Origin: Paraspadella gotoi
Lineage: Eukaryota; Animalia; Chaetognatha
Assembly: GCA_051294375.1 (NCBI GenBank)
Contig: JBJCIZ010000194.1
Location: 1-9,748, forward strand
Direction of reading: 5' to 3'
Length of the DNA stretch: 9,748 nt
Shown in pieces: positions 233 to 9,748 of the stretch (position 1 is the first letter of the stretch; the number at the start of each line of letters is the position of its first letter). The translations under genes and the position numbers were made by a program. The notes under the pieces are model-generated. The model had not been told where the DNA came from. It ran no database searches and saw only the letters and a program-made list of their open reading frames with translations.

Positions 233-1850
233 TTAAGTTCCGCCCCTGCCGCCCTCGGGCTCAGACTGAGAAGCGCGGTGAAGTCCGTAATAAACTCCCT
301 TCATTGCGATTAACTCGTTATGGTTCCCGATTTCAAGGATTCGACCCTGAAAAATACAGAAAAGACGATTTTTGTCAAACAAGATCGGTTCATCCAATGT
401 GTTGCGCCGCAGTGACTTCATTTTCACGTGTATTTCCTTTTTATCACATATGACGTGACATGACTAAAAAACTTTATTATGAAATGCACTGCAACAAAAT
501 TAAGTCTTTTATTCCTTATCCTATAGTTTATAGTTTTAGGATTCGTGAAGGCGGCGCTAGCAGTCACTTAGATTTGAGGTATTTTCCTCTCTTAACAAAT
601 GACCATTATGCGAATTATCATTTATATGCATTTTTAACGTAAGTGGCACAGACCGACCGACCGACCAAAAAGTGACTTATACTACAAATACTAAAGGTTT
701 TCAAAGGTAAACAGAACAATGGCACCAATACGTCAGGCTTTACCTGACCCACGACTGCTATTTTGTTTGCGCCGACGATCGTCGAAAGCCTATGGGCGAT
801 GGTGATGACGGTTCTGCCTTCTATCACTTTGTCCAGAGCCGCTTGAACGACCTTCTCGCTCTGAGAATCTTTGAGGGCGGAGAGAAGATTAGCATTGTAT
901 ACAAATTTATTCATTGACCCCAACGAGCCCCGTCAATTCACCGAGGGCACTCGTGGCCTCGTCAAGGAGAAGAATCATCGGTTTGCGAAGGAGGGCTCTG
1001 GCGATGCAGAGGCGCTGCTTTTGACCTCCTGCAAAAGAGGGCCATTGACAATGGCATTGTCTTCTCTTTTTTAAAAAAAACGTTCGCGAGGTTCTTTTTT
1101 TCCCCTTTTTTTTCGAAAAGGCCTACATCGCGTGCTACTCACAAAAAATCGATTTTACCCGAAAGGGATCCTCCCTTATAAACCGACATTTGTCTCGTAT
1201 GACAGCGGGAGAGTCGTTATGAAGTTGTGACAGTTTGCCTCCGAAGCTGATTATCGGAATTGATTTCTTCATAGATTCCGATTTAGTATTATGGGGTGGA
1301 TAGGGAGAGAATGAGAGAGACACGCACCTGACTCTACGATTTGGTCATTGAATATTTCTTCTCACCTTCGCCGAATGTATATTTTCAAAATAGAACCAGT
1401 GAACAAATCGGGTCCTAATTAAAAAAGTTTGTAGTAAGGTTTGCCTTATGGACTTTTCTGGCTTTATTTATATAAGGAACTGCATTTGCAATAAATATTG
1501 TTTTTCACCTGTGATACGAGGCCGATGTTAGACGAGCACTTCACGTCCAACTTTTTCACGTCCGTTCATCAAGAAGAATCCTCCTTGATAGGTTCGTAGA
1601 ATCTAAAGTTAAATTTATTATATAAATCTATAAAATGTATATATTTATGTTGATTGATAATGATGAGGTTCATTTGTAAAGCTCCCCTCTCCATCATCTT
1701 GATTATGGTGCTCTTCTTCCGCCTCCGCTGCGCCAAACGCCAGCGTCTGGCCCGGCGTCACTTCGACGTGGAAGTCATCAATGACCCGCGCCAACGACGA
1801 CCGGGTAGCGAAAGGCCACGTGCTCGAATGTACGGCGCCATCCACCGAAT
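233..1850 (-). CDS. ABCB nucleotide-binding domain 2 and C-terminus
   Basis: [32 protein letters not shown] (frameshift-corrected Walker A), [129 protein letters not shown], then TAA. The last three exons splice cleanly in frame. Confidence 0.95.
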
Positions 1851-4800
1851 CTGCGTGCGTTGTTTGTATCGTCTCTTTTTTTTTGTGTTTTTTCTCACTA
1901 ATTTCTTTCTTTCTTCTTTCTTCTTTCTTTCTTTCTTTCTTCTTCTTTCTTTCTTTCATAATACCTGGCCGGAAGTTTCACTCGCAAGGTCAGGCGTCGG
2001 TCGCTGTAAATGAATCCCAGCATGACCTTGCGGACTCTTTGACCTCAGAGTATGGCGGAAGCTTGTAGCTCATGTCGTCATGTAGTTCCGGCGCCGACCA
2101 TAGCTGATACATAATAATATATATACCGGGACTAATTGGCTTTATGAATTGTACAACCAATATAAAAATTATCCATTCGTTTTAAAAAAAAAGACTATGG
2201 ATTGTGATTAGGGCTTCATCACTGTATAAACATAATAAAAATTACAGGACCGTGCAAGCTTTCAATCAATCACTCTCACAGTCAAGTTTATTCACTCCCA
2301 GAGGATCTGGTTTCCCATCATTGAGTGGTATAATGTTTCAATTTTTTTAATTTTATTATAGGACTTCTCCTCAAGTATTAGCTCGGGGAACTATGTTTAT
2401 TATTATTTATATTTATATTACTTTATTATATTTTCTAATGTAGTAAATCACCTGAAGTCAACTGGCTTTTACTAGTACCTATCAATTTTCATCGCCTGAT
2501 CAATTTTGCAGAACTAATTTAAAAAGAATTTGTCATTCGGATACCTATGTTTTGGTATAGATGTCGCTGATTCTATGTTCTGCAGAGTTGAAGGAGTGAT
2601 GCCCAGAGGAGGACGCGACGGACGCTACCTCCCGATGATCCGTAGTCCAGGGGCAAAGGCAAAGCTGTTGAAAAGATCTTTCGCTTCTTCTGGCGTGCCA
2701 CTTCTCCAGCATATCGCGAAAGACAGCGAAACGGATTCGCTCCAGGCAAAACTGTTACCATTCGCATGTTTTGAGGGTTTCGATCGCGTAGACTTCCGCC
2801 TTATATGAGAAAGATCGAAGTAGTTCATGTATAAAAATTGAGTAAGCGACCTATTAATAACACGTTTGTTAAACTCAATTTTAACTATGAAGTTATAAAT
2901 CTATAAGTTCCTCCTAACCTCGGCATCCAAATTATCTCACCGGTTTCGGTTTGTACAGCAGCTGACTATGAAGGACGGTATCAGAATCAAAGGTATGAAA
3001 CCTGTAATTAAATAGGAATTCGTCAAATCATCGGTAAATTACACTGCTCGTCCATTGTTTGATTTAGAGGGAGAGACCCACTGAGAAAAGGAAGGCCGAT
3101 CATCCAGCGATGCAAGGAGATGAAGGCGCAGAGACAAACGCTCGTCGACTCATGATAAAAACCGAAGAAATTCGGAACGAGGGCCGGCGCCAACTCGCCC
3201 GCTTCTGAAGAGCAGCAGTCACTGGGCCGTGGAGTGGTCCGGGTCGTCGTGCATCTTGGTCTGTGGATGATCGCGCGAAAGGCCAGCTTTCGGAGGCGTT
3301 GCGTCAGATTTGGGAGCATTTTGTCAGGAGATAGATAGAGAGGGTATGCTGTGTAGAACGTAGGTGGAGGAGGCTCTTGCTGAAATTCTTTATCAATTAA
3401 TGCTATCCAGAAACCTGATGCAACTACATGGCCAATATCTCCTTGACACCAAATCCAAAGGAGAGGCTTGTGAAATGCCTTGGTTTTTTTAGGATCGGAC
3501 AGAGGGCCTGAACAAAGATGAATGCGAGCAAGAAGGGGAAAAAAAGAATATTCTTCAACCAATCATTAGGGATAAAATGAAGAGAGCGTTAAGGTGTTGC
3601 GTCGATCGATTATCCACACAAGAGGGCAAGTCAAAAGGCATCCGTCTTCTCTCGGCACATCTCAACATCCTACACATCAGACGTTTGTTTTGATTGAATC
3701 GTTCTTCCTTTCTACCAAAGGCTCGGGAAAACTGAAAATTATATCATTTTTTTTTTCGTTTTCTTAATTTCCGCGCCTCGATTGGACTGTCGAACCTTCG
3801 TCGACTTCCTCGTCGATTTCTTCGCGGTCTCGAGATCCTTGCGCGATTGGTCAACGACTTGGGCACCTGGCTATCACCAATACGACGTGACAGGACTCAG
3901 CCTTTGCTGTGTAATCCTGAGGCAAAGTCAGAGTCTGGACAGATTTTTCTGCCTCTGCGTTCGGTCGTCGCCTTCTTGACCTTTGACTGGGAGTCGTTAA
4001 AATTTTCTCATTTTTTGTTTTTCTTTCCCTCTCCATTGTTACAGGCTGTTTGTATCTAATCCTAACCAGCGGCGTAATACATTCCTCCGATTGTCATGAG
4101 TTGGTCATGATTCCCCATTTCGCTAATGGTCCTTGTTAAGGACGATAATAACATCTGCGTCCTGATGGTGCTGAGAAGATGAGCGATAAATAAGGGTCGT
4201 CCGCCCTGTCGAAAAAAAATAACGTTGATGTGAATTGGTTCCAAAATCTAAATTAATTGCGTTCCCCAATCCTACACATGCAAATCAATATAGACTTTTA
4301 AAACTCTTACTAATATAATTTTTATTAATACTTTTTTCCCCTTTGAATTTACAATTTTTAGAAAATTTCTAATTCTTAAGCTAAATTAATTATTTCAAAA
4401 TTTATATTTTTCTTTGCCTAGAATAGAATTATTTTTTGATACACATTTTAAATTGATCATTTTATTTAAAACAAATCGGATTGGAACAATAACATCCTAA
4501 TAAATATATAAATTAACAACGGGCCTCATTTAGGTCCAAAAAATATTATTTGAAGCATTAAAGCTACGTATATAGAACCAACTTTTTAAAATATTTAAAT
4601 TATACTTAGAACTTTTAAACATTTATTAGGTAAAGTTTGTTTCAAATTTTTTGGAAAAAAATTTTAAAAATTAAAAAAAATTTCATGCTTAAAAATTCAT
4701 TGGGGAAAAAAGTATAAAAGTAAAGGTATCTAAATAAGTATTTTTTGCGAACTTCGAGATGAGACCTGTTATAATTTGATTTCCCTAACTATTTAACGTT

Positions 4801-7800
4801 ATTTAGTTCCAAAAAACCTCAATTTTTTTTTTAGTTTTTTTATTAAGTGTGCTAGCAATTAATACGTTGAATTTTGGAAGAATAAAAGCCTACCAGAAAA
4901 AATTAGCATTGGCAGGAGACCATTTTGTACTATAGTGCTAATCTCGTTGAAAAAAGAAAGGAAAAATTTCGGCAAAGTATATTGCGCAACCTTTCTCGCT
5001 TTTCTCCAGTGCCTTTTGCACGAACCCTCTCGCTCTCGTTGTCCAACGCGCTTGGTCGCTTCGTCGAGAATCAAAATCTTTGGGGATTACGCATCAAGCT
5101 CTGGCGATAGCAATTCTTTGTTTCTGGCCGCGGAGAATCCGCCGCCTCCTTCATCCCATCTCGACGAGCACCATAGCATTATTGTACTTTATCTCTATCT
5201 GTTTTGTTAACTCGATCTTACCATAGCATTACCATTGTGTCGTAATTTTTGCGGCAGAGCCATTATGAACTCATGAATATTGGCCATGTTGCGGGCCATC
5301 TTTGATTTATCCATGCTGGGATTTACAATGTACCAGCGATGTTGTCTTTATGGTGCCGGAGAACATTGTCGCATTTGCGAGACGACTCCTGAACGAATTA
5401 CCAACGGAGGAGAAATATTCTCCCTCGACCGGTTCGAAAAAAATCACATCGGCTTACCAATCTGATTTCGTAACCAACATGACGTTAAATTTTTTAGGTT
5501 GACGTTATCCAAGGTCACTTGTCCATTCGTCGGGATCGTATAAGCTGTGAAAAGCCAACTGTGGTAAACTCTGATTTTTAAAACAGATACATCTCTGGTT
5601 CAAAATTTTTTATGAAAATTGAACCTCAAGATGAGTTGCACGACGGTGGATTTTTTTCCGTTTCCCGATTCTCCCACCAAAGCGTAAGTTTTTCCCAGAT
5701 TCAAATATTCAACGTCAGCCCTGGTCGATAACACATACATACAAACTTTACACGAGCAAAAATTAAAAAACCAACAGAAACGTCCGAAACCTGGTAAGAT
5801 GACATTCGTCTTCCTCGTCGGATAAGCGAAGACGACGTCCTCGAAGCGGATGTCGCCGGACGACTTTGTCGGGACCAATCCCGAGTTCCCCAGTGGATTG
5901 ATGTGGCTTCGAGTCTCGATGATCTCGATCATCGCCTTCATCGCCGATCGACTTCGAAGCAATTGTTCCAAACCGTTCATCCGAATGACATCAGTAGGCC
6001 CCCTGCGAGGGCGGGGGAGCTCTTAAAGCCGCGACACCGGAGAAAAGATCGGACACGACACTCACAGCACCGAAGTGACGAAGATGGAGAAAAAACTCTC
6101 GAATTCCGTAAGTCTTCGGTTGATCGATGAAAGGCGGATACATGTACCACATCGCCAGCGCGCCTGACCCGCCATTACAAGTCCCTCGGCGGCGCCTATA
6201 AAAGAAGTAATGTTAAGCAATATGCATTCTCAATCAAAAAAAACTTTAACTACTATACTACTAATATTCCATAATCAATAATCGTCAGCGCTAAAGTTCA
6301 GTTTAAAATGCGTGGCTTCCACCCCCTTTTACCCTTGAGATTGCCGATTTGAATCCGGCGATCGAAGAGGCGTGGCTCACGTTGTCCAAAGTCCTCGAAT
6401 AGGCGGAGATACGCTGCTCTTGTCCGTTGAAAGCCAGACGACGTGGATGCCCCGGAGGCGCTCTCGTCAGCGATGGTCGCCGCTCGCCGTACAACTTTTC
6501 TGCTTTTGAATTGAGATCTTCCCGGAGCCAGAATTCACCATCCTGTCATCAGACAGACGAGTATGTTGCAGTAAGTTTAAGGGTTTATGATAAGGTACTG
6601 TGTTGGCAAGTCATGCCGAGTGAAAATCTCGAGAGCATTAAGAAGACTAGTACCTCATAGCATAGAGTCGGGTTTTCCGCTTTCGTTTTATGGTTTTTTG
6701 CTTTTATCAATTTATGTGTCTTTTTCGTTTCTGTTATAATTTGGTTTCAGGTCTCGGCAAGGTTCGTTTTTTTAGGGCACTTGGAAATGTTTTTTCGAAA
6801 GGTGGTCGTTCTGTAGTTGGCGCTGTGGTCAGTCTAGTAATTGTTGTTTTCGTTGTCGTTTTCGATTTCACCCTTCACCTGAATACGTTGGCCGGAATCA
6901 TGACGCCGTTTATAAGAAGCGAGAGTTGCCACCCTTGTGGCGTCGTCCCGATGAAGGCGACGATGGACATGGCGATCTTAAAGGCCGCCTCGCCAACGAC
7001 GCTTCCGGTAGAGCGCTCTACCTGCGACATCACCACGGTGAACAATTCCGTCAGATATCCTGAAAATCCGGAGTGAATTTGAGATCATTTGATTCCAGGC
7101 AAATCGTATAAGGAATATTAAAGAATTAACCTATATCGTTTTGATCGTAACCACCCGGCGTCTTAACGACAGCAGCTTTGCGAAAAAGAAACCAATTTTA
7201 GTCTTTTAAATTGTCGAAATGTTGTTATGCGCATAAAAGCGTCCAACAGCAAACAGGAACAAGTGACCTAGTTGAGAAAACAATAATGTAACGTAATAAT
7301 TTGATGTACCAATAAATCAGACATGTTTCGACTTTGCAGTACAAGTCTTCATCAACGCTTTTCAAGTTTAAACTTAAAAAGAGCTGATGAAGACTTGTAC
7401 TGAAACGTCGAAACATGTCTGATTATTAATAAACCATCGTTGTTGATTAAAAAAAAAAATTTTTCTATCTAAGAGGGAAAAGTTAAATATAGATTAAAGC
7501 CAACAACATTTCAGAAACTCCTTATCTTAGCTTTAGTAATGGCAAAATTGCTGTCCAAGTGACGGCAAAATGGCGTAATTACTATACTATACAATACCTT
7601 TGTGCCAGGTGTCAATTTTTTCTGGCGCAAGAAATTGAAAGGTGACTTTTAGTTTACTGTTTTTAAAACTGACCCAAATCCAAAACGCTAAGTCGTAGAG
7701 TAGAATAAATTTAGATTTGTAATCTGTTGGTGTATTTGTCAAAGAGGAAAAACTAGGGGAAAATCCAAATTATTAAATTATCCTGGCACTTTGGATCTGT

Positions 7801-8794
7801 TAATGACTGGGACGAATAAAGAAGTACTTCAATAAATGGAAATAGATAAATGATACACCTATCAACTTATTTTTTCGCTAAACACATCAATGCTGTAGCT
7901 CAAGGCTCATTGCAGCTGAGCGCAGTTGCTAAAGGGTACTTAAGAGTCATTCATTGAGATGATTAAGGCCAATCATGATTGCAATGAATGAATTTGGTTC
8001 TTGAAACATTTTACATTGATAAAATAACAGGTTCTATTACTTCAAATAAATTTTTTAACAAAAAGTTCAGAAAGAGTTTGAAAACCCGGTTATTCCATAC
8101 CCAGATCAAAATCAAGGCCAAATAGTAAAAGTTCCACACTTTGTCTTTGTTCATGACGTAATTGAAATAAAGTTAGAATCATTTTTTCCTTCTTTGTTCA
8201 CAAGTAAAATTTTCTTCGCTTTTGTTATTCATCACTTTTCGTTATCTGTGGTAAAAAGTTTTTCTTTTTTCGTTTGTTGCTATTATTTTTGATAAAGGAG
8301 CAACGTGACCCCAGCGCCTCCTACGAAGATTGATGTCGCCCATGTAGTAAAACCAAAAACGAGTAACTTCGCGATAATCGCAAACAAAAACCCAAAAATG
8401 TCAAGAATCCGTCGATTCTCGTGCGAGTAAAGAAGCGTCTCGCGTCGTCGGTTGTGCTTTCTGGGTCTCGGGTGGGTTTCCTTCGGGGGAGGAGAGAGGG
8501 AGGAGGAGAGAGAGAGTAGAGAGAGAGAGAGAGAGAGTCTGAAAACTTTCCTTTCATATTGAGTTGCTGTTGTAGTAAGGGAGTTCAATATTTCCATACG
8601 TTAAATATATCGATGGTGCGTATTTCATTGATGTTGACGTCTCGATCGTAAGCCAACTCGTAGCTCGTTCTTCGGTATTCGTGACCCTGGTGGCTGAGAG
8701 ATACATAGACTAATCTATAATCTATTGATCGCTGTTGCGCAAATTCTCTCAAAAATGTTCACCTCGAAAACAAGGTAGCGGGCAGAGGATTCAT
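233..8794 (-). CDS. ABCB1: Full-length ABCB1/MDR (P-glycoprotein)-like ABC transporter, about 28 exons, many apparent frameshifts
   Basis: Manual minus-strand exon reconstruction using GT/AG boundaries (approximate): 8794-8763, 8693-8600, 8480-8310, ~8157-8086, 7267-7131, 7059-6879, 6542-6333, 6195-6066, 6002-5791, 5720-5625, 5544-5458, 5388-5233, ~5159-4991, 4205-4067, 3986-3796, 3731-3560, 3507-3415, 3348-~3081, 3001-2941, 2850-2545, 2103-1965, 1850-~1686, 1602-1509, 1414-1328, 1246-1159, 1028-942, 868-744, 346-233. The peptides follow P-gp in colinear order and include two NBDs. The symbol denotes the family only; orthology is not established. Confidence 0.9.
1902..1957. repeat. TTTC/TTC low-complexity repeat in an ABCB intron
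   Basis: Direct reading of the sequence. It produces the spurious K/E/R-rich and F/S/L-rich ORF segments. Confidence 0.85.
1965..3986 (-). CDS. ABCB linker and TMD2 exons
   Basis: Linker [17 protein letters not shown]; [23 protein letters not shown]; [13 protein letters not shown]; [17 protein letters not shown]; [13 protein letters not shown]; [10 protein letters not shown]. The order is colinear with P-gp TMD2, with several indels. Confidence 0.8.
4067..5720 (-). CDS. ABCB nucleotide-binding domain 1 exons
   Basis: Walker A ([23 protein letters not shown]), [31 protein letters not shown], signature region FS(G)[11 protein letters not shown], Walker B ILDEAT, H-loop IAHLLST, and [16 protein letters not shown]. 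Confidence 0.9.
5791..8157 (-). CDS. ABCB TMD1 exons and start of NBD1
   Basis: Peptides (some frameshift-corrected): [13 protein letters not shown]; [20 protein letters not shown]; [55 protein letters not shown]; [19 protein letters not shown]; [44 protein letters not shown]. These match the order of motifs in P-gp TMD1. Confidence 0.85.
7320..7355 (-). ncRNA. Second minimal hammerhead core, inverted copy (C3-to-U variant)
   Basis: The minus strand reads TTGATGA-A-GACTT-gtactgca-AAGTC-GAAACATGTC, with a 5-bp stem II and a GTC triplet ending at 7320. Confidence 0.55.
7384..7419 (+). ncRNA. Minimal hammerhead ribozyme core (Penelope-like element type)
   Basis: CTGATGA (7384-7390), an extra A, stem II GAC..GTC, GAAA (7410-7413), palindromic ACATGT stem III, and a GTC cleavage triplet ending at 7419. 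Stem I pairing is weak. Confidence 0.65.
8310..8794 (-). CDS. ABCB N-terminal exons 1-3 (N-tail and first TM helix)
   Basis: Exons join in phase: [11 protein letters not shown]|[31 protein letters not shown]|[18 protein letters not shown]. After frameshift correction this continues [18 protein letters not shown], resembling the P-gp 'FRYS..LD...GTLAAII' segment. Exons 1-2 rest only on splice sites and phase consistency. Confidence 0.55.
8488..8537. repeat. Degenerate GA/GGA microsatellite forming the polypyrimidine tract of an ABCB intron
   Basis: GA-rich run that lies just 5' of the minus-strand acceptor at 8481-8482. Confidence 0.8.
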
Positions 8795-9391: not shown

Positions 9392-9513
<122 letters not shown>

Positions 9514-9556
9514 TTTAAATTTAAAGATTTAAATTTCGCCTAATCCACCCTTCTAG

Positions 9557-9740
9557 ACGCTTCTCGCTCGGGCGACTACGACTCCGCCTATGAAGACGCC
9601 GTGTCTTGGTTGGAGACGATGAACCGGAAGTTGACGACGAATCGCGACGCGAAGGGAAGCCTCGTCTCGGTGACGGAGAGATTGAGGAATCTCCAGGATC
9701 TCCATCGCGGCGTCGTCCAAGGGCGGGAGAAGTTTGACCG
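9557..9740 (+). CDS. Internal exon of a spectrin-repeat protein
   Basis: TTCTAG acceptor and GTGAGT donor. Open frame DASRSGDYDSAYEDAVSWLETMNRKLTTNRDAKGSLVSVTERLRNLQDLHRGVVQGREKFDR has the conserved helix-A Trp (SWL) and a helix-B pattern. Confidence 0.75.
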
Positions 9741-9748
9741 GTGAGTTA

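What the first reader, a model, noticed from the sequence alone, without database searches (positions are those of the whole stretch)
7311..7427. Palindromic pair of hammerhead ribozymes inside an ABCB intron
Seen: a near-perfect ~117-bp palindrome whose arms each carry a hammerhead core, one per strand. The plus copy is CUGAUGA-A-stem II-GAAACAUGUC and the minus copy is UUGAUGA-A-GACUU..AAGUC-GAAACAUGUC. Known: minimal hammerheads with an extra A after CUGANGA and a palindromic stem III mark Penelope-like retroelement pLTRs and can cleave as dimers. Inference: this is an inverted pLTR/retrozyme relic or a small foldback element family. The long hairpin would sequester the ribozyme on whichever strand is transcribed. 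Stem I pairing is poor, so activity is uncertain.
Basis: partly seen in the sequence, partly recalled or inferred. Interest (0 to 1): 0.8.

Follow-up and report, generated by a model that had tools for sequence, protein, structure and literature searches.

The report
Mirror-image Penelope stump with caged hammerheads
A 110-base hairpin in an intron of a multidrug-pump (ABCB1-like) gene carries two mirror-image hammerhead-ribozyme motifs; it is likely the short dead end of a Penelope-type jumping gene, a known kind of insertion, and the hairpin is predicted to keep both motifs from cutting.

Summary
A 110-nt inverted repeat (7315-7424, 50 of 55 Watson-Crick pairs) has a minimal type-I hammerhead core on each arm. 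A public contig spans it with no differences. Spliced contigs place it in an 833-nt GT-AG intron (7268-8100) of an ABCB1-like gene. The core is a dispersed repeat: depth is about 19-57 times the flank, and many contigs break exactly at the core edges. The same core occurs in 27 metagenome loci with covarying stems. In two of them it sits at the end of an RT/GIY-YIG frame, and 8 of 21 distinct places hold head-to-head pairs like this one. Papers describe opposite-strand min-HHR pairs and head-to-head inverted pLTRs with a one-sided tail, and this scan met the same thing in at least 11 other genomes. Each arm has a lesion (plus: stem I broken; minus: C3U). The antisense arm is transcribed first on either strand, so folding predicts both cores are locked. 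A second haplotype lacks 61 nt (the plus core and centre). A Penelope ORF in this organism, a target duplication and cleavage were not shown. Verdict: ordinary inverted Penelope pLTR stump, low interest.

The parts
7315..7424 (.). Head-to-head inverted repeat, 55+55 nt, no spacer (extends to about 7311-7427 with one bulge)
   Evidence: read-confirmed
7320..7355 (-). Minimal type-I hammerhead core on the host-gene sense strand: C3 replaced by U, extra A before a 5-bp stem II, palindromic stem III, cut site after 7320; stem I pairs 5 of the first 6
   Evidence: model R1 29.0 bits, E about 7e-7
7384..7419 (+). Minimal type-I hammerhead core on the antisense strand: canonical CUGAUGA, 3-bp contiguous stem II, palindromic stem III, cut site after 7419; stem I broken at positions 2 and 3
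   Evidence: model R1 30.7 bits, E about 2e-7
7356..7383 (.). 28-nt palindromic centre, inferred inversion junction of the two 5'-truncated copies
   Evidence: sequence; role inferred from PMC3846280
7358..7418 (.). 61 nt absent from the second haplotype (2-nt CT microhomology): removes the centre and the whole plus core
   Evidence: joint 7357>7419 in X3, X5 and X6, X7
7422..7455 (+). One-sided 3' extension, likely the PLE 'tail'; shared with another locus, not mirrored on the minus side
   Evidence: opposite-strand joint 7377/7422 in X1, X3, X9; mirror test not significant, p about 0.3
7268..8100 (-). Host intron (833 nt, GT-AG) of an ABCB1/P-glycoprotein-like gene; the minus cut site is 52 nt upstream of the 3' splice site
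   Evidence: spliced X9 contigs, splice sites, gene identity

Best explanation
This is likely a very short, dead, head-to-head insertion of an endonuclease-bearing Penelope-like retroelement, whose two hammerhead motifs are predicted to be locked by pairing with each other. Penelope elements carry a minimal type-I hammerhead in their pLTR, and insertion often leaves a 5'-truncated copy beside an inverted 5'-truncated copy, with a 30-40 nt tail on one side only (from papers). Here both copies were cut down to the ribozyme plus 14 nt (inferred), giving the hairpin, with the tail on the plus side (inferred from sharing with another locus). On either strand the antisense arm is made first, so the ribozyme emerges into a duplex 70-80 kcal/mol more stable than its own fold (computed). 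The host pre-mRNA should therefore not be cut (inferred), and the intron is spliced normally in the RNA-like run (shown at contig level). Freed from selection, the arms drifted (5 of 55 positions, including C3U and a stem I break), and one haplotype lost 61 nt by a microhomology deletion (deletion shown; direction inferred).
For: Dispersed family: summed contig depth over the core vs flank is 1262 vs 68 (X1), 9796 vs 193 (X3), 538 vs 23 (X5) and 748 vs 30 (X6), 374 vs 15 (X7), 344 vs 6 (X8). Loose ends pile up exactly at 7320 and 7354-7355 and at 7383 and 7421, with unrelated flanks, so what is shared is the ribozyme core. The consensus flanks at 7354 read as canonical C3 with G2.1 in X1, X3, X6, X9, and those at 7320 give C1.1 in X1, X3, X5, X6, X7, X8, X9. 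Same core in 27 metagenome loci. Across 28 cores aligned from them, 87% of stem I/II cells pair, 8 of 9 pairs change on both sides, and the covariation score is 0.656 vs 0.205 shuffled and at most 0.174 when slid. In L015/L007 the core sits at the 3' end of an RT plus GIY-YIG frame on the same strand, with a 39-nt inverted copy at the 5' end of L015. Nine matched head-to-head pairs occur in 8 of 21 distinct places, 37-565 nt apart against 29 here. Stem I/II pairing probability is 0.0 in the full hairpin on both strands and at every prefix that contains the core. Papers: PMC4209133, PMC3846280, PMC8557442.
Against: No Penelope ORF in the window (tblastn with 4 locus proteins gave no window hit), and the organism's genome is not held, so the family's parent here is unseen. 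No target-site duplication was found (only two 6-mers), and no empty-site haplotype in the 7 runs laid. The Pfam hits of L007 (GIY-YIG, 20.7 bits, cut-off 22.6) and L015 (RVT_1, 16.7 bits, cut-off 29.6) are below threshold, and the other 19 of 22 frames scanned gave nothing, apart from a similarly weak RVT_1 in L023. The 27 loci were picked by a pattern copied from the plus arm, so model R1's hits on the window are partly circular. Summed contig depth is not a copy number. Rfam has no hammerhead hit.
Confidence: 0.88

Rival explanations
1. A single solo hammerhead was already in the intron, and the palindrome arose later by a local fold-back (template-switch) duplication. The haplotype with one core would then be the ancestral state.
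For: A one-core haplotype is present in 4 samples (S1, S2, S3, S4) and as a minor contig in S6. No TSD was found.
Against: The one-core haplotype still carries 7419-7455, the 3' end and tail of the plus arm, which another locus also carries beside a hammerhead core. The break has 2-nt microhomology. The arms differ at 5 of 55 positions and the haplotypes at 5 of 85 in 7273-7357, so the palindrome is not a fresh copy of either. Head-to-head pairs recur in unrelated DNA.
Confidence: 0.06
2. A self-contained fold-back (MITE-like) element or a non-LTR retrozyme family that moves as this unit.
For: The core is multicopy, and a second locus shares a reversed core and the 34-nt tail.
Against: Depth rises only over the 35-nt core, not over the centre 7358-7381 (10.3, 6.7 and 0 in X6, X7 and most X8 bins). 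Flanks of other copies are unrelated. No tandem direct copies are in the window. Retrozymes are defined as tandem units, each with a hammerhead (bioRxiv 10.64898/2026.07.22.740005, part 1 read).
Confidence: 0.04
3. A host-selected regulatory hairpin, such as a miRNA/siRNA precursor or a splice regulator of the ABCB gene.
For: Long stable hairpin; miRNA models score it at E 1e-5; it lies 47 nt from the 3' splice site; one low-depth X9 contig uses a cryptic GT inside stem II.
Against: The miRNA scores are under half of the gathering cut-offs (41 vs 91 bits) and reflect shape only. The hairpin is missing from a common haplotype. The cryptic splice is depth 2.4 against 168-289 for the normally spliced contigs, and comes from the haplotype without the hairpin.
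Confidence: 0.02

Closest known systems
Minimal hammerheads (min-HHR) of metazoan Penelope-like elements (Cervera and de la Pena 2014, PMC4209133; parts 1-2 of 4 read)
   Same: Type-I core, one unpaired base between positions 9 and 10.1, G10.1-C11.1, palindromic 15.2-16.2/loop 3, short stem I, many dispersed copies; the paper reports dual min-HHRs about 100-700 bp apart on opposite strands.
   Different: The pair here is only 29 nt apart and fully palindromic; stem II is 3-5 bp rather than 7-8; the minus core has U3 with G8, not the U3-A8 covariant.
Complex insertions of EN+ PLEs: inverted 5'-truncated pLTR, palindrome at the junction, 30-40 bp one-sided tail (Arkhipova et al. 2013, PMC3846280; Craig et al. 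2021, PMC8557442; passages read)
   Same: Head-to-head orientation, palindromic junction, about 34-nt extension on one side only.
   Different: No ORF remains; no TSD detected; arms are 55 nt against about 200-nt pLTRs.
Metazoan non-LTR retrozymes (bioRxiv 10.64898/2026.07.22.740005, part 1 of 5 read; PMC7229834, search listing only)
   Same: Type-I hammerhead of PLE origin in non-coding DNA.
   Different: Retrozymes are tandem direct repeats with a ribozyme in every unit; this is an inverted pair.

Membership tests
Minimal type-I hammerhead of PLEs | Core boxes CUGANGA, GAAA, UH | tested here: met
   Plus arm exact. Minus arm has U3 where 28 of 28 aligned cores have C, so met fully by one arm only.
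Minimal type-I hammerhead of PLEs | Extra base before stem II, G10.1-C11.1, palindromic short stem III | tested here: met
   Both arms; features from PMC4209133
Minimal type-I hammerhead of PLEs | Stem I of 4-5 bp in register | tested here: inconclusive
   Minus arm 5 of first 6 pairs; plus arm broken at positions 2 and 3; family flank consensus suggests G2.1-C1.1
Minimal type-I hammerhead of PLEs | Self-cleavage as a dimer | not testable with these tools
   Folding predicts no active fold in the hairpin; cofolding two single arms did not give the dimeric hammerhead as the MFE
EN+ Penelope-like element insertion | Linked RT plus GIY-YIG ORF in the same family | not testable with these tools
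   No genome held; none in the window; seen for the same core in L015/L007 from other DNA, with sub-threshold Pfam scores
EN+ Penelope-like element insertion | Head-to-head inverted truncated copies with palindromic junction | tested here: met
EN+ Penelope-like element insertion | 30-40 nt tail at one end only | tested here: inconclusive
   7422-7455 is shared with another locus and not mirrored, but no family consensus was available to define the tail
EN+ Penelope-like element insertion | Target-site duplication (optional in the papers) | tested here: not met
   Only two 6-mers found, both AT-rich; no empty site to define the boundaries
EN+ Penelope-like element insertion | Dispersed multicopy family | tested here: met
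   Depth peak and loose ends at the core edges in 6 of 6 DNA runs laid
Non-LTR retrozyme | Tandem direct units, each with a hammerhead | tested here: not met
   No direct repeat of the core in the window; only 2 descriptor hits, on opposite strands
Rfam hammerhead families | Score above gathering threshold | tested here: not met
   No hammerhead family matched at E<=5

The most novel reading that the evidence does not exclude
The hairpin is a polymorphic cage for an intronic ribozyme 52 nt from a splice site of a P-glycoprotein gene. The deletion haplotype removes the antisense arm (and in one contig has the canonical CUGAUGA), freeing the hammerhead to cut pre-mRNA as a trans-dimer with abundant family transcripts, or exposing a cryptic 5' splice site, so the two haplotypes differ in drug-pump output.
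Probability: 0.04. Interest if true: 0.55.

Novelty: new member of a known kind. Interest (0 to 1): 0.15.

Why it matters
Little on its own. It is one of the shortest head-to-head Penelope stumps seen here (29 nt between cores against 37-565 in the 9 pairs from other DNA). It also shows a likely decay path, a 61-nt microhomology deletion that turns a caged pair into a solo motif, which would explain part of the many solo min-HHRs. The two haplotypes form a natural test of whether an intronic minimal hammerhead affects its host gene.

Tried and rejected
Rfam: no hammerhead model hit; the miRNA hits are shape-only and below gathering score. Own-genome search: no genome is held, so copy number and Penelope linkage in this organism stay open. 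Idea that the inverted repeat extends to the 3' splice site (7268) and supplied it: alignment of the outer flanks was not better than shuffles (p 0.24-0.56) or AT-rich background; rejected. TSD search: nothing convincing. Assembly artefact: rejected by contigs with 0 differences. Two protein searches meant to place the organism's taxon found 0 hits among 55 and 33 candidates, so the taxon is not determined here. L015 RT against PDB: best hit telomerase RT at E 0.07, not significant; the other hits are chance-level. N-terminal ABCB fragment against PDB: no significant hit. The dimer-cleavage paper PMC5785218 is not held; it is known here only through the review PMC6765202 (passages). A search for 'hammerhead' plus 'C3U' found 0 papers, so the effect of U3-G8 on activity is recalled, not checked; PMC11167929 shows only that C3G and G8C abolish cleavage (passages). 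No RNA holder on record was listed; X9 is RNA by guess, supported by its GT-AG joins. Absence of the palindrome haplotype from X5, X8 and X9 contigs is not evidence of absence. By-sequence look-up of earlier findings gave nothing. Supplements of the papers were not read and may list similar palindromic pairs.

Full report
Observation. The repeat finder gives arms 7315-7369 and 7370-7424, 55 nt each, no spacer; 50 of 55 positions are Watson-Crick pairs. The region folds at z -12.4 (plus) and -16.0 (minus), with 0 of 200 shuffles as stable on either strand. Each arm holds a hammerhead core pointing outward: plus 7384-7419 with canonical CUGAUGA, minus 7355-7320 with UUGAUGA, both with an extra A before stem II and GAAA-CAUG-UC. 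A descriptor finds these 2 and nothing else in the window; its strict form had 0 hits in 300 shuffles. Rfam has no hammerhead match at E<=5.

It is real DNA in an intron. No genome is held, so I used public runs (9 runs, one organism code, 3 studies; 7 of the 9 were laid, X9 twice). Contigs match the palindrome with no differences in X1, X3, X6 and X7; X7 record 10 spans 7273-7444. The window has 1-nt indels against reads in neighbouring exons, so the frameshifts seen in the ABC gene are at least partly assembly errors. In X9, RNA by guess, a contig ending at 7268 continues with window 8102-8131, which skips 7268-8100, beginning GT and ending AG on minus. The gene's second nucleotide-binding domain matches ABCB1/P-glycoprotein best (E 6e-20; ABC_tran E 6e-10). 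The minus core is thus on the sense strand, its cut site 52 nt upstream of the 3' splice site.

It belongs to a dispersed family. Summed depth over the core is about 19, 51, 24, 25, 25 and 57 times the flank in X1, X3, X5, X6, X7, X8. The tool warns that this is not a copy number, but many contigs start or stop aligning exactly at 7320 and 7354-7355 (or 7383 and 7421) with unrelated flanks. What the copies share is the ribozyme from its first box to its cut site. Their consensus flanks read as canonical C3 and a G2.1-C1.1 pair in most runs, so the window's U3 and U1.1 are likely departures. The centre of the palindrome stays at single-haplotype depth or zero in X6 and X7, which argues against a mobile 110-nt unit. 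A different locus (a 1605-nt X9 contig, with the same joint in X1 and X3) carries a reversed core followed by 7422-7455. That 34-nt stretch is not mirrored on the minus side and fits the one-sided tail of Penelope insertions.

Two haplotypes. A second version lacks 7358-7418, with 2-nt microhomology, in X3, X5, X6, X7. Its depth is similar to the palindrome version where both are seen (X3 77 vs 122-128; X6 12.2 vs 10.3; X7 7.7 vs 6.7). Whether these are alleles or paralogues was not resolved. It keeps the plus arm's 3' end and tail, so it is best read as a deletion from the palindrome (inference). In X6 and X7 it also has 7325 G>A, a G-U wobble in stem III. One X9 contig of depth 2.4 has this version with canonical CUGAUGA and joins 7343 to 7267, a GT-AG skip from a cryptic donor inside stem II; the normally spliced contigs have depth 168-289.

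The motif elsewhere. One exact-pattern scan of metagenome contigs returned 27 loci, 21 distinct places after merging 6 overlapping pairs. The descriptor found 42 cores there, 15 of them not selected by the pattern, all with C3 and an in-register stem I. I aligned 28 of the 42, leaving out duplicates and edge-cut ones. Of the cells, 87% pair, 8 of 9 pairs change on both sides, and the covariation score is 0.656 against 0.205 for shuffles and at most 0.174 for slid controls. A model from that alignment scores the window arms at 30.7 and 29.0 bits with the next hit at 7.8, near the bottom of the 59 hits overall; this is partly circular because of how the loci were chosen. In L015 and L007 (97% alike over 973 nt) the core ends an RT plus GIY-YIG frame on the same strand; the Pfam scores are below cut-off and 19 of 22 frames scanned matched nothing. 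Nine matched head-to-head pairs lie in 8 of the 21 places (L001/L006, L004, L011, L016, L017, L022, L024 twice, L026), 37-565 nt apart; the window's 29 is the shortest. The one tail-to-tail neighbour pair listed has cores with different stems.

How it works. Shown by computation: in the full hairpin, stem I and II pairs have probability 0.0 on both strands. The hammerhead fold scores +3.5 (plus) and -2.1 (minus) kcal/mol against -67 and -80 for the hairpin. In growing prefixes of the sense transcript the core is already paired to the antisense arm made before it. Even single arms rarely form stem II (under 0.1), and cofolding did not give the dimer form. Inferred: the element is inert, and the host intron is spliced around it. 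Untested: cleavage, small RNAs, allele effects.

What is known. Cervera and de la Pena 2014 (PMC4209133, parts 1-2 of 4 read) define these min-HHRs, report pairs 100-700 bp apart on opposite strands, and find no monomer and low dimer cleavage. Arkhipova et al. 2013 (PMC3846280, passages) describe head-to-head inverted pLTRs with junction palindromes and a 31-bp tail at one end. Craig et al. 2021 (PMC8557442, passages) generalise this. PMC11167929 (passages) ties the tail to two RT start sites and shows that C3G or G8C abolish cleavage. PMC6765202 (passages) reviews dimer cleavage. A search for hammerhead, Penelope, 'opposite strands', 'head-to-head' (3 of 4 terms) listed 3 papers, only PMC4209133 relevant. 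This scan's notes hold 12 findings of the same kind in at least 11 other genomes; I consulted them after forming my reading and treat them as leads, not support.

Verdict. Observation confirmed, interpretation supported, novelty low: a new, very short member of a known kind of Penelope insertion. Membership in a Penelope family in this organism is likely but unproven, since no ORF link or TSD could be shown. Interest 0.15.

Noticed in passing
window 7268-7342 (-): One X9 contig (depth 2.4) splices from a cryptic GT inside hammerhead stem II to the normal acceptor, keeping the upstream intron; about 1% of the normal spliced depth.
   Followed up: partly
window 236-8460 (-): The ABCB1-like gene shows many apparent frameshifts; four checked in exon 7132-7267 are 1-nt insertions absent from reads, so the assembly is error-prone and the gene is spliced in X9.
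   Followed up: partly
window 7456-7568: The second haplotype replaces this 113-nt stretch with 16 other letters (X1, X3, X5), a further intron indel polymorphism next to the element.
   Followed up: no
X9 record of 1605 nt, laid on window 7377-7418 and 7422-7455: A contig from another locus with a reversed core plus the same tail has depth 109 in the RNA-like run, so a family copy may lie in an abundant transcript.
   Followed up: no
window 9544-9741 (+): Exon with a weak spectrin-repeat match (Pfam E 0.013) after a long (GA)n tract at about 9395-9509; a homologue search found nothing.
   Followed up: partly
window 4325-4379 / 4664-4718 and 4481-4512 / 4614-4645: Nested AT-rich imperfect inverted repeats (72-73%) in another ABCB intron, possibly an old fold-back element.
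   Followed up: no
L011, L024, L026, L016: These loci are dense with palindromic Penelope stumps of several hammerhead families, some nested within 3-6 kb.
   Followed up: partly
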